From positions 41,608,401 to 41,672,400 of the forward strand of contig CM120641.1 in the NCBI GenBank assembly GCA_051362555.1: DNA of 64,000 nucleotides, read 5' to 3'. Position 1 is the stretch's first letter, and every line of letters begins with the position of its first letter. Shown one piece after another: positions 7,879 to 49,491 of the stretch. This DNA is from Lingula anatina (lineage: Eukaryota; Animalia; Brachiopoda). Below the pieces are notes generated by a model that saw only the letters and a list, made by a program, of their open reading frames with translations, was not told the origin of the DNA and did no database searches. The position numbers and the translations under genes were made by a program.

Positions 7879-8590
7879 ATGCAGGCAAGTCTGTGCTTCG
7901 CACTTCTGAGTGTTTTATTAACAAATTGTCACATGGCGGTCGAGTGTAATTACACGGCGTCCGAGCAGAATCCATCCGGAATGAAAATCTATCTTACTTC
8001 TATTTTGCCGAGGTCCAAGTACCGGTTTTCTATTCCCAAAGTGTCTTCTGCCGCCAAAATTGCCGTGGAAAACAGCGCCAAATACCTTCCGGAGAACTAC
8101 ACCCTTGTTGTCCAGTATACCGATTCCAAATGCGACATCGCCGAGGGCATTGCTCAGGCCATTCACTACCACTTAATAATAAAACAAGTGCACGCGTTTT
8201 TGGGCCCGATATGCGATTATTCCCTGGCCCCCGTTGCGCGCCAAGCCAAATACTGGACTATGCCTATAATCACAGCAGGAGGGAGTTCCAATGAGTTCCG
8301 GGTCCTTCGCAGTAACATGTACCCGACTCTGACACGGATAGGATTTACGTGTCAATCGCTGAGTCTGTTCATGATTACCGTTCTTAAGCAGCATTCTTGG
8401 AAAAAGATGTTCCTTATGTACAGCAAACAAGGCCAGGACTACGTATCTAAAGACCTGTGTAAATTTATCGCATCTGGAGTGAATGATTTGTTTAAGTCAT
8501 ACCCTGGCTCTAATTATGAAGATCTGGACAAAAAGGTTAATAGGGATCTTGGATATTTGTTTCGAGAACGAATAGGGACGACATTCACAG
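7879..8590 (+). CDS. First coding exon A of a natriuretic peptide receptor-like / receptor guanylyl cyclase: signal peptide plus N-terminal part of the ANF_receptor extracellular ligand-binding domain (237 codons + 1 nt, phase-1 donor)
   Basis: ATG at 7879 in AAAATG context with an in-frame upstream TAG at 7855. Hydrophobic leader MQASLCFALLSVLLTNCHMAVEC. NPR-type motifs ILPR, YTDSKCD, FLGPICDYSLAPVAR, W.MPIITAGG, YPTLTRIG, SWKK. Family similarity ends at ...RERIGTTFT, followed by the canonical donor CAG|GTAAGC at 8590/8591. The ORF tail to 8766 is intronic read-through. Confidence 0.9.
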
Positions 8591-11500
8591 GTAAGCTGGA
8601 GTTTAATTATAGGGGCCAATTTGGTACTGTGCTAAATGTGAAACAAATGAATAACGCCAGTGGCAAGTTGATGTTTTCCCTAGAAATATTTGACTTTCTC
8701 AAGAGAGCATATTTAGTCTCTTTTAATCATTCAGTGAATGTTTTATGTTTTGGAATTAAAATATAAAAAATAATTGAAAAAAAAAATACCCTGCATGCGC
8801 CATCCTTTGGAGGCACGACCACCATTAGAGCGTTTTTATATAAGTTTCCATTACTATTAATTCTACTCCCCCCACCTTTGCGATAGCCTTAACTCAATTT
8901 CATTTCCTGGAGTTATTCTATAAAGGCAAGACACTATCTCCTAGTGCCCTTTCAATAGAGCATATGACCTGGTTGTTATCTATTGCAAAAAAATATTGCA
9001 CGCCTTGACTACAGCGTGTGTAAAATGTCATTAGTGAGGTCAGGTGGCAAATTCCAACTGGTATCTGATTTGGCATTTCCTGTACCGCAAGAATACCTTT
9101 TCAAATTACATCGGTACATTAATTTATAGTACATACATGATATAAAGCTTGTCCTGTCATCCCAAGTCTACAAAATGTTGGTCTCTGATGGTCTTTTTAT
9201 ATACAGGCCAGGTACGTATCTTGAGAGAGAGAAATGCATGGTCATTTTCCGAATCATGCTTCCCCTGAACCCTTGCTTTTGCACATGTGCATATTGTTCA
9301 GAATATCACAAGTACTGAAATCTGCCAGTATGGTTCTTATGTTGGGAGCGCTTCTGAAACTCAGCAGTATCCCAATAGTATTTTTGTATTTCTATTGGTT
9401 TCTATTTCTTAAATGTGTATTTAAAAATGCCCGAATCGGATAAATTCCGTGTATGTACCGGTAAATTAAGGCGGTTCCAAAGTTCAGTATTTGATTAATT
9501 TTGTTTGATAAGTTCGTCTGTGCGAGCCTTTGGAGGCATGTTATCTTAAGCTGCTGACACAAAGTATCTATTGGCAACACCTTAAAGGACAGAACTGAAG
9601 GAAGTGGATGTCACTTCATGCTGAGGTTTTGATTGAAACACCATCGTTCCTTTTTTGTAGCTGATTAACAACTCCGTACACCTGATAACCAGTTGAATTC
9701 TTTCGTTAGTTTTTGCAATTGGTTATAGGGTGGATCTTTTTTTACACAAGAAAATTGTTTAGTCCAGTCCAAGTTAATGGATTTGTGTCCTGTCAACCAG
9801 TCGCTGCATTACTGCGCCTCGACGTCCAATTACCCTTCATTCTTCTCCCCTTCATTCTCCTGGGGCTGCGTATGAATTGCACGTATGGCTTGTGTGACAA
9901 ACGTTACAATGAGGCCATTTAGCGCCTTACGGTTCGCTTCGGCCCTTTAACTGTATTTAGTAGGTTTTATCATTTACGTGTGCGTATCTGCTTAACGGAT
10001 ACCAGCAATGGACAGAAGCAGTTCGCAGCGCAATAATACAGTAGTCTTTTAATGACTAACACAAACGATGATCGATGGTGGTGATGTTTATGTTGATGAC
10101 GATGCTGATAATGATGTCGATGATGCTGTTTATTGACTGCATGTAGCTTTAAAAAGCCCTCTTTACTCAGAAACGCCATGTCCATGGTACCGTTCGGAGT
10201 TAAACGGATTCGGTTGTTACTAACTGTGACTTGTCCTTCAAACATGTGAAGTATGTTAAAATAGATCGCATTCAGTAATACCCCCAACCTACAGACCGGA
10301 AGACGAACAGTTTCTATAATCCAGTACAATTTGATTTGCAATGACCACATATGTACCATACCCCCGTACAGAAAGTATTTTATTATTTTGCCATGTAGGC
10401 ACTCCATGACCAAGAATAACTTAAATATTGATTTTAACATAATGTTACATATAATCACAACGTACATGTACGTTGGATTCCACAGCTAAACCGCATACAT
10501 TCAATCTCCAGGGAAGACATGGAGGGCATAATAGCTTTTTAATCACCACAATCAACCTCAAACTGTATTTGAAAAATAAAAATTATTACCCGACCGGTAC
10601 ACCGTACAAAAAGTAAATTGCCCTCTCCAATATTACCCTCTTTTATAGAAACGTCTTATTTTTACCAGCTTTACACACGGGAAAAACATTTCTCAATATA
10701 TACACCATATGCTGTATATAACTTTCGAATCGATTTATTCGTTTATCCTTTGGAACAAGGACCAACTATTGCCATTAATACGTTAAACCGTTATTTACAT
10801 CAGTGGCTTTGCGTGATAAAACCGTCAAAAATCGCTAGGGAGGCTCCATGTTTATGTTAGCTGTCGTCTGTGTGAAATATGAAATAGGAGAAAACGTTTC
10901 TCCCATTTCATAGTCGCATTAAACATCACGCTTTTCAGTAACAGATTGATGTGTTTTTTTTTCACCTACTCATACAAATATATGACAAATGACTGAAAAC
11001 GGAGTGCTCTTCCACAATCATAAGCAGCTGCATGGATGTCTCATATATTCAATTAAGTCGCCGAAGGAAAGAGTGCACTCAAGGCTCAATTTTAGACTTC
11101 AAAACTGTCAGAAACGGATGAAAACTTCGTCTGGAGAATGACGTAGCCCTTAGCTAATCTATTTCTAATTTCATATTGTTTTGAGTGCGAAATGATGTTG
11201 GAAATAACGAGTTACTCTAAAATTGCATCATTGGCCTCTTAGGACAATTATAGTCTTCCCATACGTGGCAGTTATTATGAATTATATTCGAGATACACAT
11301 GTTGTATAATAGAAATGTGTGAACGATGTTAATTAATTAATTACCAGCTGAAGAATAGCCATTCAACGCCACGTTAGTTATTTTAAGTGATCAAAAGAGA
11401 AAACATTTAAATTAAAAGGTGTTTAATAAGCGCTGTTAATTACGTCATGTTTTCAGCATTCTTGGTACAGAACAGCACGGTATCCTGCAGTTTCCATGGT

Positions 11501-11681
11501 AACCACTTTGATTTTTCATTAAAGGCCTGGTTGAAAACGAATTAATATTAAATGCGTGCAACTGAATGGTTTGTGTTTGTCCCGGTGCATATTTTACCGA
11601 TGAAGCTTTTGGTGCATACAATTAAATTAATATTACGCCGCTCAGACTAAACTGATGCATACAGGTTTAAAAAAAGAGCCA

Positions 11682-12414
11682 AGGCCGCATTCATAACCTG
11701 TTAATCCGCGGACGAACCGATCTGCGGATCAAATATAGCCGACTTACTTGAAAGTTTGTCGCAGAATCCCTTAATAGATGCTGTATAGATGCCTCTTGAG
11801 AAAGACGCGGCAAGTTTTCAAGTGGGTCGGCCATATTTGATCCGCGCATCTGTTATACCCCATTCACACTACAGTTGCAAAAATGCGCATTTCTATAATC
11901 CGAATTTTTCGTGAGGAATTCGATTCGGTATTGCGTTCACACACGCTAAGAGAAACCGAATTACACGTTGAAAATTTCAGGTTTAACTTCCTGTTTTGAA
12001 CACTCGCGCATGCGCCGCACAGGAAATGCAACTCTAAAGACATATTCCAGCATTCTTGAGAAGTATAAGATGGCAAAATAAGTTTGTTTCCTCATATTGT
12101 AGTGAGTGGTGACCTCCAAATACGTTTGGTGCAATCGCTAAAGTAATAAACAAGCGTTCATAGATACCCGCACTTATCTGCACACATGCGCAGTTAGATC
12201 TGTACAGGTGTCGATTCCGGTAAGTTATCCGGATCGCGCTTAGAAATCCACCTCGTTTGCAGGATTTTGAAAATGCGCATTACAAAAATCCTCTTGCGTT
12301 CACACTACTGCATTTATTCGAATTGTGACCTAATTCGCAATTTATCCGGATAACTGAGCGTAGTGTGAACGGGGTATTAGTCTCCAGATCACCTTATGGT
12401 TGTAAACGCGGCCT
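11682..12414. mobile_element. Non-autonomous DNA transposon (MITE, possibly PIF/Harbinger-like) interrupted by a nested MITE
   Basis: Imperfect TIRs AGGCCGCATTCATAACC and GGTTGTAAACGCGGCCT. Internal GGCCATATTTGATCCGCG resembles sequence at about 30060-30085. Confidence 0.6.
11856..12376. mobile_element. PIF/Harbinger-like MITE nested in the element above
   Basis: TIRs TACCCCATTCACACTAC and GTAGTGTGAACGGGGTA (1 mismatch), flanked by a TTA target-site duplication (11853-11855 and 12377-12379). Internal GCGTTCACAC subrepeats. Confidence 0.8.
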
Positions 12415-15400
12415 TTAAAGGGTATATATCATAGCTTATTTCGCTATTCAAATTCAGCGAGAAAAACACGATCCTGGTACTGAATTTGACATTGTCATTT
12501 TCTAGCTCGTGAGAGATCTATTAAATGTATAACTGTACGTCAGTGGTAATATATTTATGAGAAACAAATGGACTGTTTATCTTCCTTTTGTTTATCAGTC
12601 GTCTGGAGCAACAGAACAAATCCATTAATATTTCTATATATCTAGTTTTTATGATCCCATGCATGTCCTTACCTGTCCCCACAGACGAATTTATCCTGGC
12701 TCATGATTTGAAATGTGTTCGTTGTTTATTTATAACTACAGCTAAAGGCAATGAGAATATTTTATTCATCTCAATTGAAATAGCGCATTAATATAACTTC
12801 TAATCTCCCCCTCATTTCTTTTATTGTTGTTAGGGTTAACAGTGTGTCTGTATTTTATGAAAAAACTCTACTTGAATGCTGTGTGTCCCCACAAAAATAA
12901 GTAGTAGTCAAAGCAATGCTAATTATATAACCTAAAATTTATCTAGAAGTTGTGCATATGTATGGCACATGTACTTATAACTCGATCGTGTCCTCGACCA
13001 AACGGGGAAACTTTTTTTTTTGATAGTTCGGAAAAACGCATTAGAAACCACTTATAGGCCATCTCATCATGCGAGGCAAGAATCATTAGGTCTGTACATG
13101 CATTACAGTCATTAGTATAAGATGGAAGCGGCGTTCTGGGTGACATTTCTCCACCGAGCGCACCAGAAGAGATATGTTTTTTAAAAAGGAAATAAGGTCC
13201 CTGTTGTAGCTCCACTAAAAGCGCATCAGGGACCATCAATCATATCCTGTCTTATGCAATGCATGCACACTGAGTCGGTGATGGCTTTTTCCAACTTGAA
13301 GGTTTTCCGATACACTTATAACTGTTGACTGACCACGGTCGATGAGTACTTTGTTTTCTTTTAGCTTTGGTTTGTAGACATTTTGGCCACTACATTGTAC
13401 ACTACGCTTACTGAAGGAAGCAAACCAATAATGTCTTCTTCAATTTGTGCCACCCCAAAATGCTTCAGCACGCGTCGGTATATATTATTTAAAAGTGCTA
13501 CCGCGGAAAATGAAACTAACGCCTTCTTCAATAAATTTCTCTGCTCTTTTCAGTCAACTTGATTAAATTTAAATGATTGATTGAAATTATACGGTAACGA
13601 GACTAATTGTATTCGCTAATGCACCACCACATTGGCTATTGCCAACGAAGCAAACAAAGCGTTTTCCAACACATTTTGTATGATCAACTGTAGGCTGCTA
13701 TATTACAAAACGAATTAATAGCAATTATTATTGCTTCGTTTTCCGCGATTTGATTTGGACAGTTATTACAGAATCAGTCGTTCTTCATATATATAAATGC
13801 CACCTTTCATAATGAAAATTGGGGTCAATGTCCGCTGTGGAAACAAAATTTTACGTCACCATTGTCCAATGAAATATGAATTTACCGTGTCCAAGGCATG
13901 TTTCTCCTGAGTAACATATTCTTGCGTCCTTTCTTTCTTTTTCATCTCTTGATATTTCGAGAAAAAAATGGGAACAGAACCAATTGCGCCCCGATTTAAC
14001 TTTTTCGAAGGTAACTGAGTCGAAATGGGAGTGGGAAAACCAGAGGCTGCACGAAGGGAGACACGCTTGCATAAGTTGCATATATAACCCCCTCCCCTAC
14101 ACACACACACACCACTAAAAAGTGGGATTTACGATCACGCATCCGCTACTTGAAAATAGAAGTAGAACAATTTCTCTTTAACCTCTCCTTCAGCCCCTCC
14201 TCTCTTTCACTCTAGTCGGGGGTTTAGCAATGATTTTATAGTTAGGGAGTGCTATTTTAAAAGTGAAATATCCTGCATGTCAAACCAATTATGGGAATTG
14301 CTGAAAACGGCACCATCAGTGATCCACAGAGGCTTCGGCGATGAACATTAATTGAAATATCTAGAGAATCTATTCGTTCAGAGCCAGATAATGGCACTTT
14401 AGTAAAGTATAATTGGGATCAATGCGTCGATTGGGTAGCGTGTACTGACAATGCATTTCAATGCAGATGGCAGTATTTTAGGAACACAGTCATTTCCTGG
14501 TGCACCTCCATTGGGTACGAAACGCTATAATTTTCACAGAAATATAAGTGTTAAAGAGTGCAAATTAAGGTGGGCGAAGTAAAATGTTAATTGAACCAGA
14601 GGGTGTTTATTGATATTTTACATGTATATTAGTACACTGCGTATCCTGCGGATTCCAGCTTTCCCTACCTCTTGGTATAACAAAATTTTAGTTAGTGATT
14701 TATATTTAGTGGGCTTAGGTCTTAATTTTTGTTAAATATTATGAAAGGAGGGTCACGTAACACGAAATGTTCTAAATTGAAAGATCGGCAGTTTATTAAA
14801 TTCATATTATTTTACCCTTAAGGCATAAACGTCTTTAAGTAGATCAGTTAATGCTTTCTAATGTTCGTTTTTATTTCATTATGATGCCTGTAAAATTTAA
14901 ATGGGTCCATTTCATACATCTAGAAAAAATGCTTCTTTATGTTGTTCTACCAATATGAACGTAACACGACGCGCTATTTTTTATTCTTCATACGAAACCG
15001 CTTCAAAGAAAAATGACACAACTGTTGCTTTTAGTCGTGATTAGAATGAGCACAGGTTCGTGTGATTTATTACCGTTAAAGGCTTCTTGCCATACTCGGT
15101 AAAAGTCGCTGAGGGAAAAACAACCGTGATGAAAACATCGCCGTAAATAAATCAAAATCACACAAAAGAGACTAAACGCAACGCATCCCTAAATTCTGCT
15201 ATTCTCTGATAAGAGATTTTCGACATGTCAGCGACATGTTAACAGCCGCCTTCAGCTTCTTGCAGACAAAGATGGCAATCACGTTGTAATGCATTTATTT
15301 TCAAAGTATCCAGGGCGGATACATGTACATGATAAATCTAGCTCTTTCTTTGTAACATTACGGGTCAAATTGTCATAACTTAATTAACTTTTGAAATGCT

Positions 15401-15451
15401 CACATAAGACCTTTCCACACCGAACGTTACTCCTTAGCGATACAGAAGTGC

Positions 15452-15726
15452 ACCTGTTTGGCAGGAATGGTAGTCCTATAGGAATGGAAGTCTGTGACTC
15501 CATATGATTAGTACAGGTTAGGGTTAGTGGGAGTATTGGGGTTAGTATATGGGACGAATGTCACCTGTACAAAGTAATTGGGAACGGACAGCGGTTCCTA
15601 CTGTAGCAGATAGTTTTATTCTCATAACCATTACAGGGTGAAGAAAACCTGCTACAAATTTTTTTTTATAAAAAATAGATAATTAAATGTTTAAACATAG
15701 GGGACTACCATTCCTGTCACACCGGT
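15452..15726. mobile_element. MITE (TIR ~CCGGTGTGACAGGAATGGTAGTCC), copy 1
   Basis: CAGGAATGGTAGTCC at about 15462 is the reverse complement of GGACTACCATTCCTG at about 15702-15716. The left arm is homologous to 49674-49813. Confidence 0.65.
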
Positions 15727-16445
15727 ATGTTTTGAGAGATTGACAACTTGATAGGCTGGATAACCGATAGAACGGATGAGGGTCGCCCAAAGTGTCCCCC
15801 GCACTCGACACTGATGATGACAATCAATCAGTTTAACTTAACAGAAAGTAGCGAACCGTGGAGACCTTGTGAAAGTCTCCTATACATGTACATGTAGATG
15901 AATTACACAGTGGAACATCTCAAACTGTAACGATAGAGCTGTATCGCTAAAATATAACGCTCCATTCGAAAACGCCTATAAAGGAAAGGAGTTTATGTCA
16001 GTGCGAACATTATCAATATTTCGAAACAGAAACTCAATACTTTTAATTTTTCCCTGTCAAAAACGTCTTTTTGAAATGACAGTTATTTTTTGTATAATGC
16101 AACAGGGATAACATGGCTGAAGGCCCACTTATGTACCAGTAGTGACGCATGGAATCGAATTTGTGTGTTTATCCCATTCTGAGTTCTGAGTTCTGAGTTC
16201 ATACACTGCATTCTCCTGAATATCAGCGGTATCATGTTTGCTGAACCCCAAGCAATTTTTAGATTGTCCTCGTATTAGCCAGCACTTTGTGAAATTGGAT
16301 ATTGAACCATATTCAGTATACATGTAATGACTATCAAAATATATGTACGACTATTCTCAGACAATGCATCAATTCGCAATACTCTGTCCTTGGTCTGTCG
16401 GTTGGCTTAATCACTAGCTGTTCCATATACCGTGCGTCCAGCGGT

Positions 16446-16732
16446 TTATTACCTCCGCCAAGGAGGTTACGTTTTTGGTTCCGTTAGTTTGTCTGTCTGT
16501 CTGTCTGTCTGTTAGCAACATTACAGAAAAAGTTATGAAACTGTCATAAGTGGGCCAAGGAACAGATGATTAGTTTTTGGTGGTGATCCGGATCAATAAT
16601 CAATCAATAATCAATAATCAAAAATCCAAAAAACTAAATCATTATAGAATGAAAATTTAGGGGTGAAATGGCATTGGATGGAGACTTTGCTGCCTTGGTG
16701 GAGGTCTGCGCTCTCGGAGTGCTTTTCTAGTT
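16446..16732 (+). mobile_element. HINE/DINE-1-like non-autonomous Helentron element
   Basis: 5' TTATTACCTCCGCCAAGGAGGTTA with sub-TIR and adjacent hairpin, a (GTCT)n microsatellite, 3' sub-TIR CCTTGGTGGAGGT, a terminal stem-loop GCGCTCTCGGAGTGC, and a TTCTAGTT end. Confidence 0.8.
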
Positions 16733-17277
16733 GATATTGCCATTGGCATTACATGTACATGCACTGTATATACTACAATAGCAAGCTCGAACATTTTTCA
16801 GTCAACAGCGGCGACAGATTAACTGCAACATGCCGAAGACAGCTCCTTGCCTTTTAATGTTTATAGGAAATAGGATTCATAGCTCAATCAAGTCTAATCC
16901 GTTTTCAATACATTTGCTACACTGCGACCGTTTTGAGCGCCGTGCAGATTACTTTTATCAAACATTTTCTTAACCGCTTCGAAAGAGTTAACTTGGTTCA
17001 GATATCGGATGAACCACAGGTGATACTTTCACCATTATATCTGAATTAAGCGGATACATTTTTGATTTTTCCATCTTGTAGATCAAAGCAGCAGATAATT
17101 ACATGTTAATAACGTTATCAGAACTACATGTATAAAAGTTAGTATGATTTAATTGTTAAGATGCGTGTAATATGATACATGTCAGCGTGGAAATAAGGCT
17201 TAGAATTATATGCGGTGGAGGCAACTTAGGTACTAGCACAATAGTTGGCGTGTGTGAATGCATGATGTGTTTCAAAA

Positions 17278-17303
17278 ATGATAATAATTATGATAATAAT
17301 TGA

Positions 17304-17353
<50 letters not shown>

Positions 17354-17356
17354 TAT
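17278..17356. repeat. (ATA)n/(TTA)n trinucleotide microsatellite
   Basis: Read directly; source of the poly-Ile ORFs. Confidence 0.9.
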
Positions 17357-18002
17357 GGCGCATTCCAAAAAATAAACCATTTAATGCGTCTCCCAGAATG
17401 TCTAAAATTATTAAACCCACTGGTAATAGATCAATTAAATATGACAATAAAATGAACTCAAACAAAAACCACAATTTAGCTGCATTACTATACTAAAAGT
17501 ACCAGTTTTAGATGGTATAATACTTCTGGTCTTCCAGCTTTTCTGGCATTGGGAAATAAATATCACATACTTAAATCAGATCAATTATCTTATTGAGTCA
17601 CTACCCCCACAGTATGACATAATTGTCTCGACCAGATTCAGGGTTCAATAGTTTAAGCTGTCATCTTGCTGACCGACTAAACGCGTATCGAAAGGAAATC
17701 ACTTTACGCCTGTATCCAGAGCCGGACTAATGAGATAGCTATGTCTTTGATGATAGGGATCCCAGACAAAAACGACAATACAAATCAAATGCAGACTTCA
17801 TGCCGGATGAAATACGTCTTATGTATATTAGTACGTTTATCGACATATCAAAATAGATGACAGGACTTGGCTTCTACTAAATTCTTATTATGTTTTGCGT
17901 AATGGGTAATTATAATCGATTTAAAGGGGTCGATCTGCAACACGAATCTTGTGTTGTTTTTATGGTCCCGTCTCACGGTGAACAGGTTACGTTACTAATA
18001 TA

Positions 18003-18208
18003 CAAGAAAAGCTCTCAGAGATGGCAGACCTCCGCCAAGGACTCTGAACTGATTGATTGCGGTATTTGAGAGCACATGCATTGCACAAGGTCAAGGGCAT
18101 TGAGCCTCGTTTCGCAATGGTGAAAACTCATTTCTAAAAATCCTTGGATCCATATGGTGATCCAGATCAAAGATCTAATCACTTTATCTAACCACTTTTA
18201 GGTTAGCC

Positions 18209-18299
<91 letters not shown>

Positions 18300-19910: not shown

Positions 19911-19943
<33 letters not shown>

Positions 19944-24818: not shown

Positions 24819-27800
24819 TTAACCATTTGCATACTGCATTCGAAATTCGACATCAGTACATGTAGTATGATTGCAAACTATCAGTCTCGCAGTTCATTAA
24901 CAAGCTCGAAAAAAGTTTTCGTTGAAAGGAAGTAGAAATGGAATAGTATTGACGTTCTGAAAAAACAACACAAAACAAGTACATTTACAAAGTACTGAAT
25001 CCGCAATTGAATCAATACAGATATTTGTTGAAGAATTATATTAATAAGCTTACCTAACTGAGGTGCCTTTGAATAAAATATTGAGACTTGGTCATGCGCT
25101 GTTTTTTTTTCTTTTTTTATTGAAATCATATTCGTTGGAAGTCGAATTCACACATTGAAAATATATTATCATTTTCTTTGTGCACATCACCAACTCCCAG
25201 AATGACGATGCCAACCATTCTATATACACCAAAAAACAATTCTATTGCTAATTAGTAGGAAATTGCAACTTTTAAGGAAGCGTTCAGATAAACCCAGTGT
25301 ACTAACTGAATCGATCCAAATCTCCCTAAGTGCAATCACTATAATTGGCTTAAATGACTATCTATCTATCTAGGGGGTAAAAAACTAATTAGCAAGCTAC
25401 TCAGAGAGCCGTGTCAGACAATTAAGCTGATTACACTAAATGGAAAATACCCAGCAGAGTTGAATCGAGCAAGCTGGTACGATGTCTGAATCTGAACGCG
25501 GTCTATATATCTGTAAAGTATTTGACAATCCACCCGTCCTTGAGAGCACATGTGCGCACATGCATCATATCCGCGTTCATGTCAATCTCTATATTTCAAC
25601 CAAAATATGTTGATATGTACGGTTGTTAATTTCAACGCTGTAAATGTAAATGGCATATCGCCACGCTTCCGCCTTGCACACATTTTGACGTATAAGTTAT
25701 TTGTTCTCTTGATTTTTTTCTCTCGTAAAGCATGGAAACAATGCATTAAAGTCAGTTGGTAAAACGCCGCTCCGCGTCGCAAATAATACACTGTATCGCT
25801 TACTATCGACAAACTGGTAAAACGAACACTTTCTGCTTAAGATATTGCCTGAATTCCTTTTTTTCTAATTTGCAGAACACTCATGTTCTTTATCAAATTC
25901 CTGGAACACGTCGTGTTTAATAAATACGTTATTTTTCACTCGATGTTCCCCGGGGGACCCTTCCCAGCTTATCTTGCCTTAACCAGGTTGTTATAGTTTT
26001 GTTTATTGTCCCCCATTTTTTCCTCATCAGTGGAGTTTCCGAATCGCATTTGGTTACGCTAAATACAAAAAAATTGAAATATCGCATTTTGTGCTACATG
26101 GTGTAACTTCTCTTTAGACGGGTCGCAGATAGGCGAATACATCGTTTACTTTATCTAGACAACCGGAATAAAAATGCAGATTCTATGATATAGTTTTTTT
26201 TGGTTGAATAACAACTTTCTGTTGGCATTTCTGACATTCGGATTTCTCTACCGGCATAAACAGAATGTCTTCCGTTTTTACACCTTAAAGAAGTCTGGTC
26301 AAGGGCAGAGCCTTTTTATTTTATTTATTTAACTTTATTTATTTATTACTGTTTTTATTGGAGGTTTGAAACACCTTGTCGGAAAGGATAGTTGGAGAGC
26401 ATATTTTACCGAGGCGTTTTCGAATAGTCTAATTCTTTTTTTTTCCGGTGACACTGTTCATGAAACCAAATACCGGTATTAACGTTTTTCAAGCTCTAAA
26501 ATGTCAGCCCAATATATATTTGCATATCAAAACGATCCAAGTTAAAATTCTTTTTTTAAATCTGTGTGACTTAGGTCATTTTCCTTCTGGTCATTTACCT
26601 ACTTCATTTCAAAAATATCTGTTAAAATTTCTTAAAATAGTTTTATCATCGTCTTGGATATACAGAATATACAGATTGCTATTCAGCATTCGGGAAAGGT
26701 TCAAACTTCATTAGCCTCGACATTTAGCGAAAACGAAGATATACAATCACTTGTGAACTTCCAGTAGCATGGAATCTGTGTTATTTGATATTTACTTGCC
26801 TTGTGCGACATTTCACAGCACGTGTTCTCCCCAAGGTAGTTTCATACAGTGGCGCCACGTCGTGGTGCCATGTTGCAGCGATCTAAAGGTGCACTATGAG
26901 CATGATATCTTTATATACGCTGTAGACAAACTTTGAATTCCTGTGAATCTTAGAATTTTGCTTTTAATCATCAAGATGTACCTGTACCATTTCAAAACTG
27001 CTCACAAGATATAGATCCATCAACCCGTTTTGAGTTCAAATGTTTTTAGTTTACTCTCGTCACGGGGATGGAGACTGGTGAATTTCATTCGTCATGGAGA
27101 AAATTAGAAATCTAGAACACGAAAATGAATTTAAAGATCGCAGTGTTATCCATGGTTTGAACTGGCAAAACTTTACTGCTGAAACCTTTAGGAAAAAACG
27201 CTCTTTGTTTGCCTTTAAATAAGATTACAAAGCACTATCATTTCAGCATTTGATTGCAGGTTTATGGCTATGTTTCATTTTTAAACAATGGAGTGGACAG
27301 TCAATGGAGTCATATTGGCAAGTGGTAAAATGTCGATCACGTCTATGGTACTGGGCGTTTTCTACCCAGTTGCCAACAAGCCTTAAGGGTGTTGTCAGTA
27401 ACCATACGTAGATCATTTACTTTAATATCTTTGGCAATTACTTGACAAATGACATACGCTAGAGGAAAGACAAGTTCCTTGAAATCAATTATACCATCGA
27501 GAATGCTGAATTTCAAGTACAATCTGTTTTAGGTCTTCCCTACCGGGTGCATGCGCAGTAACCGGCATATCCTGCCAGAATAGAACATTATGGCCTCTCC
27601 ATACTGGAGATCAAAGATAGAAAAAAGCACTTTCCGTTTTTTCCCTACATACCTCTTCCAAGTGAATTCCCAACAGAACTGAAAGCAAGCAGGAATTGTA
27701 GATAAACTTATTTGCGTGCCATGGTGCTTATTCGTATGGGGAAGCGCTGCTTCAACTACACAGACACCGCGATGCATTATGATGTAACTTAGTAAGAACA

Positions 27801-28227
27801 TCCTTTGCTCCATAGCTTATGGGAATTACAAGCTAACAAACCCACATAACTAAACTTCGGCCGGTCGAAACATTGATTTCTCTTCACTTTTGACTTACTT
27901 AGTTTCAATGTTCTTCTTTGTTTAAAAAGTAAAAGGGTGCAGTGTTTTACAGTTTGTCATCGGTAAGATGCAAACGCTGTAAGCAAGTTCGTCAGCCCAT
28001 ACCTAGCTCTATTTATTTCGAATCGTTTGTCAGGTTTCTTGGAAAACCTAACAAAGCTCTCAAATAAATGGACGTAGAAAAACACCACAATGTCCTTGAA
28101 AGACGATTGCCGAGTGCCATATAGTACTAAATTACGGGTATTGTGAAAAACTTTCTTTTAGACTTTTTTCTAGAAAGCAACTGATTCTGTGTCAGTATCT
28201 CAGTACAGTTTTAGATTCGAATCTCAG

Positions 28228-28230
<3 letters not shown>

Positions 28231-28308
<78 letters not shown>
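28231..28308. repeat. (AT)n microsatellite
   Basis: Read directly from the sequence. Confidence 0.95.
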
Positions 28309-28311
<3 letters not shown>

Positions 28312-29926
28312 AAACTACTTTATGTGTCATTTAACGGAATGAAGCGTCAAAATGTTTTCTTCCAATCGCATTCTATTATTTTTACTGTCAATTTTAGATG
28401 TGCTGTAATCCCGCTGTGGGATCAGCTTTCACTCTCAATATTTCGGTATTATAGGTAAAAACAGGCACTAAGATACGCTAACCAACTAAAGGACGCATAG
28501 TGCCTACTGGTAAAACGGGATTTGTTTCGGATATCAAGGACGCCCTTTTCCAATTTAAAACTTGTTCCTCATTTCTTTACCTCAATGCTGTAGGCAAAGT
28601 AATTCATTCAAAACCTTAAACGAATTACATTAGTCTGAAAGTCATTTTTGTGATAAGATGCACTTATTTTTTGCAAAAAAAAAGGATACATGAAAATGAC
28701 AAGTGTTATTCGAATATCCTGCAATAATTTCACTTGGAAGAAAAAATCAATAACGGCAGTCTTGACATAATGGCCAGGTTGGTAAGGATTATCAAATATA
28801 CGCAAGACTCTGAAGTTTTTTTAGATTGATTCAATTAGGAAAACAAGGTATTGGCCCAAGGTCTAGCATTAATAAAAGTAATAATACTAATAATAAAATA
28901 AAAAATAAGACAACAAAGGACGTTTACAGTAAACCAAACGTAAAATTGCTCTAAATTTAACAGAATAACAGATTATGGATTGACTCTTATGTAATATAGC
29001 TACGTTTCCCTGCGGATATCTTTATTTGGATATGTTTCTTTTGCTTATTAATTCGGTGTCAGTTTATTCTGGGAAGTAGTCAATATCGTTAGCTTTTTTA
29101 TGATCAAAGTAGCATGTTCTTCATTAGAGTCATGTCACGTATCAGGTGTTCAAATACACGGAAATTGATCATCGATATTGTGTGTTTTTAGATATGTGTT
29201 GCATCTCTATCTCATCTTACAAATTACTGCACAGTATACTGCAACTCTATCAATACTGTGTATAGATCATACAGATATGTATATACCGTAGTTAATAGAC
29301 ATATCTTATATATACAAGAATGCGTGTCAGTAACGGAAAGGCAGTGTAAATAGCGCAAATTGCTACCCGGTACTTGGGTGTAATGGCGTATTAATAATGT
29401 TCATGGCATTCTTAATTTTAGAAAAGTTGCAAATATCATTGGATGCAGTTTGAAGCGATCATATACCGCAAAGCTTTTCCAAAAAGTAGATGGACATAGA
29501 TTTCATTGAAGAGATACTCAATCAAATGCTATTAGCTAGCTCTGGCGTCCTGTGAGATGAATCTATAGGTCATTTCTAACGAAATTTACTTCAGCGTGGA
29601 CAGTTAACTGATGCGAGCTGGACGTTAACTGAGATTGATTGGCTGTAAGGGCATATTTGTAATGGTGGCTAATTCTCACGCGGTTGATTCACGCTGGCAG
29701 CATAAAATACCCGTTTTATGGAAAGACTCCTTTGATTACAAACTTAAAGGCCGTTTTGAAAAAACTGATCCATTTAATCAGTTTTGAAAACTTTGACAAA
29801 CGCCTCAGTGCTTTCGGATTATATAGGCTGCGCATTTTAAAACCAGTTCCAGCTGATCTGAGATTAACTTTGGAAATACACTATGAGAATTAAATTGCGG
29901 GCATTAAAAGTTTTTTTCGGTGTCAT

Positions 29927-30215
29927 AGAGCACATTCAAAACAGATAATCTGCAGACTAAAAGTACTTTCAGAACAAGTTGATCCGGAGACTTAATCCGT
30001 TTATTGGCGCGTGCGGATGCGGGTAGACCGCCAGGGAATTAGTCGACACTGCTTTTATGTGGGGCGGCCATATTTAGTCCGCGGATCAGTAAGTCAGCAG
30101 TTCATCTGTTCTAAATGCGCTCTAACTGATCCGCCGACGGCGAGTGCAGAGGTTGGGAGACCATCTTTTATCAGCAGGTCAGTTAGTCCTCGGATCATCT
30201 GTTCTGAATGCGGTC
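29927..30215. mobile_element. Degenerate MITE(s) related to the outer element at 11682-12414
   Basis: AGAGCACATTCAAAACAGAT pairs with ATCTGTTCTAAATGCGCTCT (about 30104-30123). A second similar right end ATCTGTTCTGAATGCGG lies at about 30197-30213. Confidence 0.5.
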
Positions 30216-30289
30216 ATGGGTTTCTATTTGGAAATATGTATGTGAAAAGAAAAAACAAGAGAAAGAAATCAAGTGAAACTTTGTTAATA

Positions 30290-30456
30290 CAGGGCGGATT
30301 TAGGGCGGATTCTGGGTCTTCCGGAAGACGGTCACATTTTCAAGTTTACATTGACGGGTATCTAATTTTTTCTGTCGGAAGACGGTCAAAAATGGAGGAT
30401 GGATCAACAAAGATAAATTGGAAGACTGTCAGAAAATAACTCTGGATCCGCCCCTG
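30290..30456. mobile_element. Short MITE (CAGGGGCGGAT TIR), copy 1
   Basis: CAGGGCGGAT ... ATCCGCCCCTG flanked by TAATA on both sides (5-bp TSD). Homologous along its length to 59285-59451. Confidence 0.75.
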
Positions 30457-31103
30457 TAATACATGTGTTATAATTATAAAGCCAGCCTCGATCGATCCCA
30501 GGCATTTCACAAAATTATTGTAAAACGTCAAAGTTTTTTTCTGTTTATAAGAATATTTCTGCTCACGTTGGCTACCATAAGCCGGCAGCATCTGTCACCA
30601 GAGTACCAGTGCTTAACATTCTTGTGCATAACCGTTCCAAAAAAAAAACTTAAGTGCAGTCAAGGACACATCCGTGCATCAAATATTGATCACCCATGCA
30701 GGCTCTTTACTTTATTTCATAATAATATTTTCAAAACAAAGACATTCAAAAATATGCTAAAATTCCGTCCCATATGTTAAATAATAATGTTAAAGGTCTC
30801 CGTCGAGTTGCCAACCCAAGTGATTTGCCAATCCGCCTAGGCGAGAAGCCAATTGAAATCTCGCCTAAGGAAGATAGTGAGATGTAAATCTTAATGTACG
30901 TAATACTTATTGGCTTATTATAAGAAAAAAAGAGAGTTCAATCATAAGGTAGTCTTGTTTTTGTTTGGAAGGCATCTATATTGCGATAGTTGAGCTTCGA
31001 ATCCATAATGAACAATAGCATGCCAACAAGATCAATGTGCATTGCGTTTGTTTAGCTGTGTAGCAATCAAACAAAAACGCAACAGACTTGAATGTCGGAT
31101 ACA

Positions 31104-31145
<42 letters not shown>
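31104..31145. repeat. (AAT)n microsatellite
   Basis: Read directly; source of the poly-Tyr ORF. Confidence 0.9.
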
Positions 31146-31146
<1 letters not shown>

Positions 31147-34100
31147 CAATTTTTTCTTCGACATAAGTGACTACTATTATTGACGCTTAGTGTGAAACGA
31201 TTTTTTCGAATTGTACTTGCCGTTAAAACTAGCTAGGTTGGTGCCACGACAGAGCAGAGGAATACCTTGGTTTTGCCAAAACTGTGATTTTTAGGCTCTT
31301 TAATATTCGTCCTTCCAGAATTCACAAAATGAAAAATAATTAGAATAGATATTACTACAGTGTACGTAAGAATGCGTTACGTTATCGTGGACGTTTAAAA
31401 TCGTATTGTGATAAGTAGGTAGGAAACCGGTAAGACGGCATCAATCATTATTTTTGAAAACGTGGCATTTTCTAAAAGCTGATTTCCCGAGAGTGTTCAA
31501 AATTGTTCTTATTTTTCCAGTAACACGTATGTTATTTCCGAGCCTATTTCCCATATGCTGAAGTTGCGCTGTTCATCCCAGGCACTGAGTGTATTGGAAA
31601 CGTATTTGTAGTTAACTCATCGCTCGAAGACTGTCCCAGTTTAAGCTCATTTTGTGTGAGATACAACGTTCTGATGAACAATGTATAGTATATATACTTT
31701 CTGAAAGATGTGCCTTCAAAGCCCGCTTATTGTTTCAATGATTCAAACTTATTTTGGACTCAAAACGGTGAACGTCAATCTTACTAGATGGACGAAGTTA
31801 TCACAAGATGTTTATGTCCATCTCGTTATCGAAACTAGAGTTCATATGCAATCCCTAGCTCGTATCAGCCGTCGTATGGCGTATTGTTAAGTCGACATAC
31901 ATTTGTGCCCCCTATATGCTTTGACTCTTGTAGTGTTTCTTTTGGCTTGTACATTTTCAAATATACTCTAAGATAGAGATTGAACATAGTTTCTATTGGA
32001 AACGATCTAACACACGTGAAAATATCAATACCAACATGACCTTTAGGATGTCTTCAGTAAGAAAGCTGTTAAAAATTGTAAAACATTCGTTTAGTTTAAC
32101 CAAATACCTCTGCCAAATGTGCAAGACGCGGTTTTAAGACACGAACGCAATTATAATTAGAAACGTTACGGCCTGCCTTATATCAAATGTTTTGCAAATC
32201 ACTATGTAGAATGCTCTTACGGCTCGGCAGTATACATCTATAGGATCCAGCTCGAACACCCGGCCTTATTCGGAATCACGCATCCCCAATTATATCGAAA
32301 TGTTGTCAATTAAGCTCTTATGCCAAATGTTTCCCCTGGTGCCTGCTCAAATAGTCTAAAGATCTTAGTCTACTAAGACTTAGCCAACTAAGTTGCGTTC
32401 AACAAAGAGTCTATAACGCCGCCTACCTCGTATGATTCAGTTTTTTCACAAGACACTGCGCAAACCTTGATTGTCTTGACGAGGACTTATACTTTATCCC
32501 ATTTATTATGGGCCAGTCATTCTTAAATATCTAAGACAATATCGCAATGTAGACTTTGCTTACATGCACATGTACTAGTCGGCTATTCGATTTTATCAGT
32601 CTATAAGTTTAGCCCAAGAAATTATTACGAAATGGTTAAAAACGATAGCCAGTGACTCATGTCACAGGCAGTTTGTAATAGCTATCAAGCACAAATGTCA
32701 GCAGATAGACATTGGTTGGCTAGTTCTATCCGGAAGCAGAATAAAATGAATTGTCTGTAAGGTAAGTTTACATATACGTGGACAGTTATTGGGAAATTGA
32801 CATTTAGGTGGATTGTTTTTGTCCAACTAATGCACGAAATCACTCCTATTTGTTTCAACCACCAATATTTTTCTTTCTGCTGTATGATGGACATTTTGAT
32901 TTGCTCCACGTTTTTTTGTACACATTTCTTTGCATGCACGTCGAAATACTGAGAAAATCTCCACTTCCTTCTCGTCGCTCTTATCTCTACTTGGATTCTG
33001 GATAGCCTTGTGGCATTAATTGCTTTAAACGGTGATTAGTGTTTATCATCTCCTTCAATGACAAATTGGTGCCAGATGAAAAAGGTTTTATATTACCAAT
33101 TTAAGAGGGACGCACGCACTTTTACACCTCTTAACGATAAGTAATGCGGTTTTATTACCGTTATCCCATAACTGTTTTCGTTTTGGGCGGTAATGAATGC
33201 GCCAGATCAAAAACAAATCACAGAGTTGATTGTGAGGACTTTTCCTATGGAGAAAGGGCAATGTAGTAGGTTTATAAAGATGAATGGACGGGGCGATTGT
33301 GATATTGGGACCCATTTGGTAGTTGAATTGACCTTCATGTATGTTGACCTGCAAAATTAAAGCTGACATTTCTCGTCTGCTAATCTCGTTCAAATGTCAA
33401 GAATTCAGTCACTGAAAGCTGGCGTATGAACGGAGCTTTATCATTCCTAATTTTTAATAATACATGATAAACTACGACTAATATAAAGATTGGAGCAGTC
33501 TATGCGGTATAATTTCTAAAAAGTGCCCAACAAAAGCGCGTTTACCTATGAGGAACTATCTGTCCAAATGCGTGTCATTGAAAGTCAGCATCGGCACATT
33601 TGTAACCCAGTCTCTTGTATTGGAAATATGTGTTTGCATTTGTTAGTCTTTGTGTTTTGTTTTCTTTAGTTGTCATAGGCGTCATTCTCTTTGTGATTAA
33701 TTTTTCCTTTGATTCTTAATGCAAACGACTATAAGACAAAAGATACGGCGCAAACCAGTTTTTGAACCGATTTCCCTCTTAATTTCTCCATTGGTATCAC
33801 GCCGTATCTTTGTTGCGGGAGTAATAAAGGCACAGTCAAGATAAATAGGTAGTGTGGACTGGCATTACACGAGTCAGTTGAGCAGGTACTTCCTTGATAG
33901 TGGCAACTAATTTCCACGAAATGACGCAGAATCATGCAAAAAAGCAATAAAATATACTCGAAGAATCATACTCGAATGTTCTGCGTAAAGCGCCACAATT
34001 GCCAGCAACGCCTTCAAAAGTTGGGTGCGCCTGTCACTGAAGTGTCGCATCAGAGAGATAGGTCATCGTAACCGTTATTACTGCCTTCACACATGTAAGA

Positions 34101-36567
34101 ATAACGTGTATGTCAACATGTTTTATCACTTGAGGGATCGTGAACGCAATCCGGTTCATTATGACATATTAATGTATGACTTAACTTAATATATGCGCAT
34201 GTTCACCTCTAGCAATCAACGGTTGTCAACAACATATCACATACTCATGTAAGTATGACAGAAGTACGTTTGTGAAAAGAATTCATTCAGATTAAATCGT
34301 CGATTATATGCATATTATTACTTTTGATTTCTCGTGTCTCTGAAAAGTAGCTTGACGACGTCATTATCAATTGATTGTATTTGGAGCATTTTGACATGTT
34401 AGACGTCAGCCATGACGCGCGTGTTTTTTTTTTCTCCTTTTTCTACGGAATTTTCTGATTTGCATGTCCGGGTATTTGTAATTCTTATCATACCTGTTTT
34501 CAATAAAAGCACTATTTTTCCCAGATCAAATAAATAGCGGCTATATGCATTTCATTATTGATGATTTATGCAATACTTCTATGAGACGCATCAAAAAGAC
34601 CACATGCCCAACTGGTGTGTGTGACCTCGGATAATTATCGTGCTCAAAAGTACACAAACACCTATGTAAACATGTCGTTCAGTCTGCAGCAATGATAAAA
34701 ACACTACATTTGATTAAGATATCAGGTTTTTATCTTTTCTATCAAAACCCTCAAATATTGCCGTCATATTTTGTGGATTATCATATTCCTGTGAACGGGG
34801 AGCTAAGATGATATATGTAAGCTATCTTCTCAAACCTCATCGGTTTGTGTTTATGTGGCATGACCAACAGCAAAAGCAAAATCACCTGTGGAGATGTATT
34901 ATTTTTCAAAAAAAAAAAAATAGATAAATAAAATAAAAGAAAGAAAAAAATGAAAGAAACAAAGAAATCAAGTATAATGTTTTTTTTTCATACCGAACTG
35001 CGACATGTAGGTCTACAATGCAAGCTACAAATTAACCTAAGTCTTTTTTCATTTCCTTATTTTTCAAAGTTTAGTGTACCACCATGGTCGTCTGCCCTTT
35101 TATAGAGGTTAGAGCTTGGTATTAAAATGATCTCGTTGTCCAGTCACTCTTGATTAATACAAGCAACTTAACGGCTGAAGTGACAAGAGTTGCCATATAC
35201 CAGTACAAATGTATATGTAACATTTGGCCCATTAAGGCGATTCAGTCGTGTTCATATTATATTATCGTTTTATATTCTCGGGTGACTCAATTAACAGCTG
35301 CTAATACAAAAATGAGCTTCCGTCATATTTATTTCAAAGACGGCAAGTATAATTGCATGAACCTGCCTACGCCCATTAGTACCCACTTGAAGGCGAACCC
35401 ACATTAAAGTTTATTTCGTTGTACAGCACGTATAGACCGAATCTATGTACTTTGCGTAAAAGAATGAATTACTCTCTGCGCGTGTTTCGTTGACGTTATG
35501 CAAATACAGGTAGCCTTCATTTCTAAGAAGTCATTACTTTTACATTTATGCAGCTAGAAGCTTCATGCATATAGTGAGAACTCGAATAAATGTGTATCCA
35601 AAAGCAAAGCAAAGGAGGGTTCCAATATGTAACCATGTCATGTCATTGAGTAAATCTAAATGCAACATAGACCTACAATAATTATTTATTATCTTTTATC
35701 ACAAGATTGTCAGTGCACTACATAGCGGAACAACGTATTAGTTTTGCATCTGAAGAAATGCTTAGGTTATGTCTGCACCAATGACATTGGCGTTGAGGCT
35801 TTGGTACTCGTCCCAATTTAATAATAGCCAGTGATTTTCATAAGGAACTAGAATTTATCTTGTTTATATGTAAAATACAATGTATATACTGTATAACACG
35901 TGAATTGAGTAATTGAGAAAAGAATCATGTTACGAATATTAATTCCCTATTTGACAGAATAGAAAGTGACAACGTATATGTTAGCAATTTAAATCTTCAA
36001 AAATATAAGAAGACAGGAAATATGAAATAAGCCCTGTAGTTTTAAAGTAATGTTTTGGGGCCTTTTTAGCCTATATCAAAACAGTACGATTATTTTCAAT
36101 CATGGACATGCATATGCGCCTTACGAGTTGATTATGCCTGCACAAACTGTTATGTGTAAACAAAAAGCCGTCAAATGTTTAAAATACCGAACGATACTGT
36201 GACAATGGATTCTTTTCGATTCAAATGATGTGTAATGGTTATCTTAGAAATGCGTTTTTATCATTGCTGCCGCATTGATACTGGGAGCCGCAAGAAAAAA
36301 AGCGATCAAACTGGTTTTAATGGAAATTAATGGAATATACCCCTGAAACTGAATATATTATAATCGAGAGTTTGGCGAGCTATAGTAATAACTGTACACA
36401 TAAAAGACTTATCCAACATGAGTGTGGTATGGTATTCGCTGTGTTTAATAATCGTTTTTTAAAGAAGCATCGAAATGAGGAAAAGAAAAGAGTAACAAAT
36501 AGCCCTTTACTGTGGACATGTTGCTTCTTGTTTTTCATAAGACGCCTCATTTAGGATCGATGTGATT

Positions 36568-36601
36568 TCACGTGCGTCTCGCTCTTCTCAGTGCGCATGC
36601 G
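36568..36601 (+). promoter_or_regulatory. Putative core promoter of exon B
   Basis: E-box TCACGTG at 36568-36574, initiator-like TCAGT at 36588-36592, and NRF1/EWG-like TGCGCATGCG at 36592-36601. These lie about 540 bp upstream of the ATG, where the sequence becomes richer in CpG. Motif matches only. Confidence 0.4.
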
Positions 36602-37132
36602 TTGCAGACGACGGTATTCAATCAATGCGCTGTTAAAGCCTCGTTGGTTTTTTCCCCAAACATTGTGCCAAGTTACTTCAGACATTCTACGCGACATTGA
36701 TTTGTCCAAAAGGACTTAGTGAGTTAAGTCTACCACAGCCTTCTAATCGTGCCGACCTCAAAGCTCAATCAACAAGAGCTTTAGCCGCTATACTATACTA
36801 AGCAAGTGCAACATGACACAGATTTGTTTGCAGTTCTCAACAGCTGAGTTCGTTGTTAGTTCAGTGAATATCAAATATAATCCTTGTCGCTAGAAACATC
36901 CTCGTCACACTGGGTGCGATGGGAACTGTCCCCCAAGATGATCAGAAAAGAGGACGCCGTTACGTCGAGTGAAATGCAACAAGAGATAAGACGCTTGATA
37001 AAGTCGAACCTCCCAGGATAATAAAGCCGTGTGATAGACGGGTGTGATGGATAGGCGGAGATATTGGAGTTACTGGTACTGGTTAGTATAGCAGGTGAGA
37101 CCGCTGAGCGCGGTGCTGGGAAAAAACACACG

Positions 37133-37904
37133 ATGGTGACAGGAGGCCGTTGGGCAACAGTATTCACCGTTCTTGTCTTAACGAATGTTGGATGTATTAT
37201 TGGTGCTGTGACGACGACGCTGGATCAACCTGGGGCCGATAAAACCGCCTCGGCCTCGGGCCCGGAGAGGCGTGAGGTTAACGTGGCTGTAATTTTACCC
37301 AGAGACAAAATCAGGATGTTTGCAATAGACCGTGTGGCCCCCGGGATCGACTCGGCAATCGCCAAGGTAAACAAGGGTAACATGTTGCCAAACTGGCGTC
37401 TTTCTGCTCTTTACAACGATTCTAAGTGCGACCAAAGTCACGGTCCCATTGCGGCCATTGGATTGGTCATGCAGAAACGCGCGAACGTTTTCTTGGGGCC
37501 GTGCTGTGACTATAGCCTCGCACCAATCGCCCGCTATTCATACTTCTGGGACGTCCCCGTCATCTCTGCTGGCGGTTTTGCCTCCGATTTTGGAGGAGAG
37601 AACAAAAATAGTGGTGAATTCGCCATGCTAACCCGGGTGGGGGCCACCTTTGATTCTCTGACCCTGTCCATCGCTCATACTTTGGAGCAATTTCGGTGGA
37701 TTCGAATGAAATTGTTGTATCATCCGGACGCTTTTCCTGACTCATTGTTCTCCAACTATTGCTTCTTGGCCGCTTCTGCTATTATTAAGTATTTTGAAAC
37801 CGCTAATAAGACAACGGCATCCGGGGAACAGGACTATTACATATTTACTCCAAAACATAACGTCACGAAAATGCTGGAAGACGAGGTGGGCCTTGATTAC
37901 GCAA
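37133..37904 (+). CDS. First coding exon B of a natriuretic peptide receptor-like / receptor guanylyl cyclase: signal peptide plus N-terminal part of the ANF_receptor domain (257 codons + 1 nt, phase-1 donor)
   Basis: First in-frame ATG is at 37133 (the ORF track starts at a TTG, 37064; in-frame TAG at 37052). Leader MVTGGRWATVFTVLVLTNVGCIIGA. Motifs VAVILPR, YNDSKCD, FLGPCCDYSLAPIAR, WDVPVISAGG, MLTRVG, FRW. Ends ...EDEVGLDYA + A, followed by the donor CAA|GTAAGA at 37904/37905. Confidence 0.9.
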
Positions 37905-38007
37905 GTAAGACTTTAACACTTTTCGTGTAATTTGTATTGATTTATATTGATATGGGAATGAAGAGATATATGCGTGCATTGTACACCCGTTTGACCTTTG
38001 AATTGAT

Positions 38008-38046
<39 letters not shown>

Positions 38047-49444: not shown

Positions 49445-49489
<45 letters not shown>

Positions 49490-49491
49490 TT

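What the first reader, a model, noticed from the sequence alone, without database searches (positions are those of the whole stretch)
7879..37904. Protocadherin/UGT1A-like array of alternative 'variable' first exons for a natriuretic-peptide-receptor-type guanylyl cyclase
Seen in sequence: two paralogous single exons on the same strand, about 29 kb apart. Each has its own ATG, signal peptide and N-terminal ANF_receptor ectodomain portion. Both stop at the homologous residue (RIGTTFT-G| vs EVGLDYA-A|) with a GTAAG donor in phase 1 (712 and 772 coding nt, both 3n+1). By eye I found no exon encoding the expected continuation (a V-I/V-x-C-x-S-P-D...G-E-Y-V-F-type segment, TM, kinase-homology or cyclase domain) in the 28.5 kb between them or the 26 kb after exon B. 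Established knowledge: vertebrate NPR genes have a comparably large first coding exon ending near this point, and clustered protocadherins and UGT1A use promoter-selected variable first exons spliced to constant exons. From memory, C. elegans gcy-28 has promoter-specific 5' isoforms, a possible precedent that should be verified. Inference: A and B are mutually exclusive cassettes joined to one shared set of constant exons, so one gene makes several receptors with different peptide-binding surfaces but the same cGMP output.
Basis: partly seen in the sequence, partly recalled or inferred. Interest (0 to 1): 0.9.

Follow-up and report, generated by a model that had tools for sequence, protein, structure and literature searches.

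The report
Swappable ligand-binding heads on cGMP receptor
Two related exons 29 kb apart each encode the front half of a hormone-receptor ectodomain with no tail between them, and are likely alternative heads spliced onto one shared cGMP-making receptor body, a layout that database gene models of molluscs, a ribbon worm, a horseshoe crab and insects also show.

Summary
Observation confirmed. Exons A (7879-8590) and B (37133-37904) are intact, 37% identical ANF_receptor cassettes with hydrophobic N-termini. Both end at the homologous residue in a phase-1 GTAAG donor. No downstream receptor exon lies in the window (control pieces detected 129 of 141 and 101 of 105). In 23 of 33 related species examined, annotated isoforms share an identical or near-identical constant region but swap the whole N-terminus at exactly this junction; Mercenaria has six heads on one ~842-residue body. 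Heads split into two classes (SH-aLRT 99) found in both lophotrochozoans and insects, so the array likely predates that split. The swapped part is homologous to NPR1 residues 1-208, which hold the modelled peptide contacts. In this species the splice was not shown: nine reads in one of four runs cover B's 5' end, and A's expression is untested. Separate promoters versus a shared leader is open. Verdict: likely (0.85) a protocadherin/UGT1-like variable-exon array of an NPR1-type guanylyl cyclase. The architecture is known and already implicit in RefSeq models; my searches found no paper describing it for this receptor.

The parts
7879..8590 (+). Variable cassette A: ATG, hydrophobic leader and N-terminal ~237 aa of an ANF_receptor ectodomain; ends in phase 1
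8591..8595 (+). Predicted splice donor GTAAG of A; the exon's last base G would begin the next codon (Val in many relatives)
   Evidence: use as donor inferred from relatives
7814..7819 (+). TATA-like hexamer 65 nt upstream of A's ATG (weak consensus match only); no acceptor-like site found in 7000-7879
8596..37132 (.). 28.5 kb spacer with no constant-region exon and no further cassette
36648..37132 (+). Transcribed region upstream of B's ATG (likely 5' UTR; limits are those of depth bins). An acceptor-like site at 36591 lies just upstream
   Evidence: 9 reads in run X7, 0 in X1, X3, X4
37133..37904 (+). Variable cassette B: ATG, hydrophobic leader and N-terminal ~257 aa of an ANF_receptor ectodomain; ends in phase 1
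37905..37909 (+). Predicted splice donor GTAAG of B; the exon's last base A would begin the next codon (Ile in many relatives)
37910..64000 (.). 26 kb without the constant exons; these are inferred to lie beyond the window

Best explanation
A and B are two intact paralogous exons with no receptor body between them, and are likely alternative 5' cassettes of one NPR1-type receptor guanylyl cyclase gene whose shared exons lie beyond the window. Shown: both cassettes, their phase-1 donors at one homologous position, and the absence of constant exons in the window. Inferred from relatives: each transcript carries one cassette, spliced to the exon that begins [VI]VVLCAS, and then the shared rest of the ectodomain, transmembrane helix, kinase-homology domain and cyclase. 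Inferred and untested: each cassette has its own promoter, so cell type sets the head. Inferred from NPR1: the head carries the peptide pocket and the membrane-distal dimer contact, so isoforms would respond to different unknown ligands with the same cGMP output.
For: No constant exon in the window, with controls. Mercenaria isoforms X1-X6 share 841-844 identical C-terminal residues; their N-termini are 27-40% identical in 14 of 15 pairs (67% in one), and identity stops within -1 to +2 residues of the junction. The same switch appears in 23 of 33 species examined. The first constant residue alternates V/I between isoforms, as a phase-1 split codon predicts. Of 150 nearest library representatives of B, 148 lack the first constant segment. 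Of the 124 that reach the cassette end, 83 continue with residues that spell a read-through GT donor, against a 6% background. Unnamed short contigs (P0082, 4894 nt; P0171, 1257 nt; likely transcripts) carry a B-class head joined to the constant segment. A and B sit in different subgroups of one class, each with a Mercenaria isoform head. B's 5' end is transcribed in one run. The homologous NPR1 junction is 208/209; the NPR-A contacts seen in a docking table span residues 59-189 (PMC9699598 passages); W74 and the chloride site are also upstream (PMC13230927 passages).
Against: No junction read in this species: 9 reads in 1 of 4 runs, none at B's donor, no joints or loose ends. A's expression is untested. 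No genome is held, so the constant exons were not located. The relatives' isoforms are mostly automatic annotations whose RNA support I could not see. 10 of 33 species showed no switch or were uninformative. An acceptor-like site at 36591 allows a non-coding leader before B, and no shared promoter motif between A and B upstream regions rose above chance (best E 0.49). Placement of A and B inside their class has SH-aLRT of only 82-94, and A's pairing with a Lingula repeat was flagged as a long-branch join.
Confidence: 0.85

Rival explanations
1. Same shared body, but the choice is made by splicing rather than promoters: one non-coding leader upstream is spliced to A or to B as mutually exclusive exons.
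For: Acceptor-like site at 36591 upstream of B; read depth too low to place a start site. In insect models the heads appear split over several exons, with mixed forms (P0336, P0342, P0321).
Against: No acceptor-like site in 7000-7879 upstream of A, and such sites occur at 1.4 per kb by chance. Each cassette has its own ATG and hydrophobic leader. C. elegans gcy-28.c and .d have separate promoters (PMC9249223 passages).
Confidence: 0.12
2. A is an orphan or silent duplicate of exon 1, and only B (or another cassette nearer the body) is used.
For: A's expression is untested; A has a longer branch than B (1.0-1.3 vs 0.7-0.9).
Against: At 37% identity to B the duplication is old, yet A keeps an open frame, ATG, leader, conserved cysteines and the donor at the exact site. 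Its closest full-length matches are annotated isoform heads (40% to Haliotis rubra X3).
Confidence: 0.07
3. A and B are stand-alone single-exon genes for secreted ligand-binding fragments that read through the donor to stops at 8766 and 37930.
For: Both frames stay open past the donor; 148 of 150 library representatives are such short products.
Against: Those products are gene predictions whose tails are short (median 8.5 aa), unalike, and begin with donor-encoded residues. The cassette holds only part of the domain (Pfam positions 3-131 of 353 matched).
Confidence: 0.03
4. Two ordinary separate genes, interleaved or misassembled, each with its own body outside the window.
For: Abalones carry several paralogous loci with different constant regions (80-85% identical); no flanking sequence was available.
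Against: No body between A and B and no gap in the window; those abalone loci themselves carry alternative heads.
Confidence: 0.04

Closest known systems
Vertebrate variable-first-exon clusters: UGT1, GCNT2, UGT2A, clustered protocadherins (PMC1885805, abstract and passages)
   Same: Tandem, similar-length, same-frame large exons, each with a signal sequence and a recognition domain, inferred to splice to shared constant exons.
   Different: Here the product is a cyclase-coupled signalling receptor, the head is only part of one ectodomain, and heads are few (2 in the window, up to 6 seen in Mercenaria) and divergent (27-40%). That paper calls its clusters vertebrate-specific; this array appears in lophotrochozoans and arthropods. 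Distinct promoters with a shared motif are not shown here.
C. elegans gcy-28 (PMC9249223 and PMC3842693 passages)
   Same: Receptor guanylyl cyclase with isoforms c (broad) and d (AIA neurons) driven by separate promoters. One Haliotis isoform in my set is named gcy-28-like.
   Different: I could not see the exon structure (primary papers not held) and fetched no nematode protein, so orthology and the junction position are untested.
Vertebrate NPR1/GC-A, NPR2 and NPR3 (PDB 9bcv, 1dp4, 1yk1)
   Same: Full-length relatives align to NPR1 end to end (1037 bits); B matches NPR3 and NPR1 ectodomains (E 2e-19, 5e-17); the junction is homologous to NPR1 208/209.
   Different: Mammalian NPR genes have one such first exon (recalled). 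Natriuretic peptides are reported as vertebrate-only, so the ligands here are unknown (PMC6878697 abstract and passages).
Chelicerate sDscam (search listing and abstract starts only)
   Same: Invertebrate receptor isoforms made through alternative promoters, likened to protocadherins.
   Different: Adhesion molecule with about 50-100 isoforms, chelicerate-specific, homophilic; unrelated protein family.

Membership tests
Variable-first-exon / constant-exon cluster (Pcdh, UGT1 type) | Two or more paralogous large exons in tandem on one strand | tested here: met
Variable-first-exon / constant-exon cluster (Pcdh, UGT1 type) | Each has its own start codon and signal sequence and ends in the same phase at the homologous site | tested here: met
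   (leader judged by hydropathy only)
Variable-first-exon / constant-exon cluster (Pcdh, UGT1 type) | No constant exons between the variable exons | tested here: met
   with leave-one-out controls
Variable-first-exon / constant-exon cluster (Pcdh, UGT1 type) | Each variable exon is spliced to the same constant exons | tested here: inconclusive
   No junction reads in this species; met in annotated isoforms of 23 of 33 related species
Variable-first-exon / constant-exon cluster (Pcdh, UGT1 type) | A distinct promoter before each variable exon | tested here: inconclusive
   9 reads upstream of and within B; no shared motif, one acceptor-like site upstream of B
Variable-first-exon / constant-exon cluster (Pcdh, UGT1 type) | Stochastic or CTCF-dependent promoter choice (Pcdh only; recalled) | not testable with these tools
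   needs single-cell and chromatin data
NPR1/NPR2-type receptor guanylyl cyclase | ANF_receptor ectodomain of the NPR subfamily | tested here: met
NPR1/NPR2-type receptor guanylyl cyclase | Transmembrane, kinase-homology and cyclase domains in the same gene | not testable with these tools
   Outside the window, no genome held; present in the closest full-length relatives (PF07714, PF00211)
NPR1/NPR2-type receptor guanylyl cyclase | Activated by natriuretic peptides | not testable with these tools
   PMC6878697 reports these peptides as vertebrate-only
gcy-28 orthologous group | Clade with C. elegans GCY-28 and the same isoform junction | not tested
   No nematode sequence among the listed hits; primary papers not held

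The most novel reading that the evidence does not exclude
The protostome NPR1 orthologue has kept an array of interchangeable ligand-binding heads since before arthropods and lophotrochozoans split. Two ancient head classes bind different peptide families, the lophotrochozoan expansion adds more, and co-expressed isoforms heterodimerise through their identical bodies into a combinatorial peptide code. The same exon was duplicated again independently in horseshoe crab, amphioxus and bichir.
Probability: 0.3. Interest if true: 0.85.

Novelty: new member of a known kind. Interest (0 to 1): 0.63.

Why it matters
The invertebrate NPR-type cyclases are largely orphan receptors. If one gene carries several divergent pockets, ligand searches and knockouts must be done per cassette, and the two conserved head classes give ready targets. 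It may also explain, as a hypothesis, why a published comparison found protostome pockets remodelled and trees at odds with the species tree (PMC6878697 passages): non-equivalent cassettes may have been compared. It would extend the variable/constant design to a cyclase-coupled receptor and date it to early protostomes. It also exposes a widespread annotation error: orphaned cassettes filed as short NPR-like or hypothetical genes (148 of 150 representatives).

Tried and rejected
Own genome: none held. Run search with exon A: no RNA holder listed; 9 runs added by species label; no evidence either way. Reads on 31200-38000: X1, X3, X4 gave 0 (no test), X7 gave 9. Exon A has no read data. AlphaFold model of the Mercenaria receptor: mean pLDDT 50, pTM 0.32; only the head is mostly confident, so it was not used and no fold search was run. 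No complex prediction was run. Nucleotide similarity between A and B regions and shared upstream motifs: nothing above chance. Rfam: 0 matches. Pfam on 13 other ORFs of about 100 aa or more (not all such ORFs): 0 of 13. Earlier scan findings: none by sequence, genome or words. The careful tree did not finish; both trees are quick SH-aLRT trees without bootstrap, and test_one_clade was not run. Macrostomum pairs were uninformative. Literature: ten searches; none listed a paper whose title or abstract start describes a variable-exon array in this receptor. Subscription journals and the two primary gcy-28 papers were not available; no supplements were opened.
Full report
Observation. The window holds two + strand open frames at the stated places. 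A runs from ATG 7879 to 8590 (712 nt) and B from ATG 37133 to 37904 (772 nt); both lengths are 3n+1 and both are followed by GTAAG. Each matches Pfam ANF_receptor above its cut-off, they are 37% identical over 188 residues, and each starts with a hydrophobic stretch like those of six annotated clam isoforms. Aligned with full-length mollusc receptors, both stop where the relatives enter the conserved VVVLCAS segment.

No receptor body in the window. tblastn with full-length Mercenaria and Haliotis receptors hits only A and B. An HMM from 20 constant regions finds nothing under E 1.1 among 3513 six-frame fragments. In leave-one-out controls on five distant species it recovered 129 of 141 pieces of 30 aa and 101 of 105 pieces of 40 aa, with no window hit. 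A body has about 840 residues, so a complete set of exons between A and B would not have been missed. The cassette HMM finds only A and B. The window has no N. No genome is held, so the body was not located.

Relatives. Two searches with the first 252 residues of the constant region listed the best 120 of 403 and of 413 hits. From these I picked 33 species with two or more proteins; some other such species in the lists (for example Pomacea, Batillaria, Plakobranchus) were not examined. In 23 of 33, two or more proteins are 239-240 of 240 identical after the junction and unlike before it: 14 molluscs, the nemertean Lineus, the horseshoe crab Tachypleus (two loci) and seven insects. In two of these (Crassostrea angulata, Zootermopsis) one head is partial. 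The other 10 showed only separate loci, truncated models or the same head. Mercenaria is the clearest case. Isoforms X1-X6 lie on a contig of one length; X1, X2 and X4 have near-consecutive accessions. All share 841-844 identical C-terminal residues, and their heads are 27-40% identical in 14 of 15 pairs. The first constant residue is V in some isoforms and I in others, as expected when a phase-1 intron splits the codon; A ends in G and B in A. These are mostly automatic annotations, and I could not see their RNA support. Two unnamed short contigs, likely transcripts, carry a head of B's class joined to the constant segment (P0082; P0171).

Orphaned cassettes. A search of 1.84 billion representatives with B gave 1023 hits; of the 150 listed, 148 lack the first constant segment, with median length 267. 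Of 124 that reach the cassette end, 83 continue with a residue pair that a phase-1 GT donor would spell, against 6% at random positions. Six carry two or three cassettes fused by gene prediction: Lingula, Batillaria, Bulinus, Gigantopelta, the amphioxus Branchiostoma (three) and the bichir Polypterus (two); the bryozoan Watersipora has one more. The Lingula pair lies on a contig of the same length as the full-length Lingula receptor, likely the same scaffold.

Age. Quick trees of heads (82 rows; 53 rows; three short rows were dropped from the first, and the second used a chosen subset plus 11 insect and millipede heads) split them into two classes, with SH-aLRT 100 and 99. One class mostly ends in R and includes amphioxus, bichir, arthropod and lophotrochozoan heads. 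The other ends in a VG..Y-like motif and includes insect, millipede and lophotrochozoan heads. Clam, abalone, scallop, Lineus, ant, bee and leafhopper each have both classes on one body, so the array likely predates the arthropod-lophotrochozoan split. A and B both belong to the second class. B groups with Mercenaria X2 and Owenia (90); A groups with Mercenaria X1/X4 and abalone heads (82-87), and its pairing with a Lingula repeat is flagged as a long-branch join. The window is thus likely from a lophotrochozoan. The horseshoe crab, amphioxus and bichir copies group by species, which points to separate later duplications; for the two chordates this rests on single fused gene models. In insects the heads appear to be split over more than one exon.

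What the head does. Mercenaria X2 aligns to NPR1 end to end, and the junction falls at NPR1 208/209. The NPR-A contacts that I saw in a docking table span residues 59-189 (PMC9699598, passages; these are models, not crystal contacts). W74 at the dimer interface and the chloride site S53/G85/C86 are also upstream (PMC13230927, passages). The swapped part therefore likely carries the ligand pocket. Natriuretic peptides are reported as vertebrate-only (PMC6878697, abstract and passages), so the ligands are unknown.

RNA in this species. No indexed RNA run was listed as holding exon A; nine raw-read runs came by species label. Four were laid on 31200-38000. Three gave no reads (no test). X7 gave nine reads at 95-99% likeness in bins 36648-37328, covering B's upstream region and start, with no joint or loose end. 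So B's 5' end is transcribed, but neither splice is shown and A's expression remains untested. An acceptor-like site at 36591 leaves room for a non-coding leader; none was found in the 880 nt before A, which has a TATA-like hexamer at 7814.

Mechanism and odds. Most likely (0.85), each transcript carries one cassette spliced to one shared body beyond the window. I favour separate promoters, by analogy with UGT1/GCNT2 (PMC1885805, abstract and passages) and with gcy-28.c and .d, which have separate promoters and expression (PMC9249223 and PMC3842693, passages). A shared-leader variant (0.12) overlaps with this reading. A silent A (0.07), stand-alone secreted fragments (0.03) and separate or misassembled genes (0.04) are unlikely.

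Novelty. The design is known, and the isoforms already stand in RefSeq models. Ten searches of the open library listed no paper describing this array. Keyword look-ups in PMC5225109, PMC3863949, PMC1435932 and PMC8045692 (passages) showed no mention of it. The two primary gcy-28 papers were not held and may describe alternative ectodomains in the nematode; subscription journals were not searched. I score it as a new member of a known kind, with added interest from its age and from what it implies for finding the ligands.

Noticed in passing
window 23758-24079: MITE-like element: 51-nt inverted arms, 92% complementary, enclosing about five 42-nt tandem repeats. It accounts for the cluster of spurious ORFs at 23.5-24.2 kb.
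   Followed up: partly
P0143 (Polypterus senegalus, KAG2462139.1): A vertebrate gene model with two tandem copies of the NPR1 exon-1 region, each ending at the same junction; possible alternative heads in a vertebrate NPR1.
   Followed up: partly
P0177 (Branchiostoma lanceolatum, CAH1254748.1): Model named NPR3 that consists of three tandem cassettes and no body.
   Followed up: partly
P0027 (Lingula anatina): The first ~45 residues of the constant region occur twice in tandem; duplicated exon or assembly artefact.
   Followed up: no
Haliotis proteins P0005-P0024: Abalones have several paralogous loci (constant regions 79-85% identical), and at least three of them carry alternative heads.
   Followed up: partly
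Mytilus, Argopecten, Tachypleus isoforms: Further small splice differences inside the constant region (shared suffix stops at 544, 318 or 528 residues), independent of head choice.
   Followed up: no
window 30292-30456 / 59288-59451 and 58082-58214 / 59070-59196: Short dispersed repeats, about 78% identical.
   Followed up: no
window 37026 and 37042: Two G changes against the window in all covering reads of run X7; likely allelic differences.
   Followed up: no
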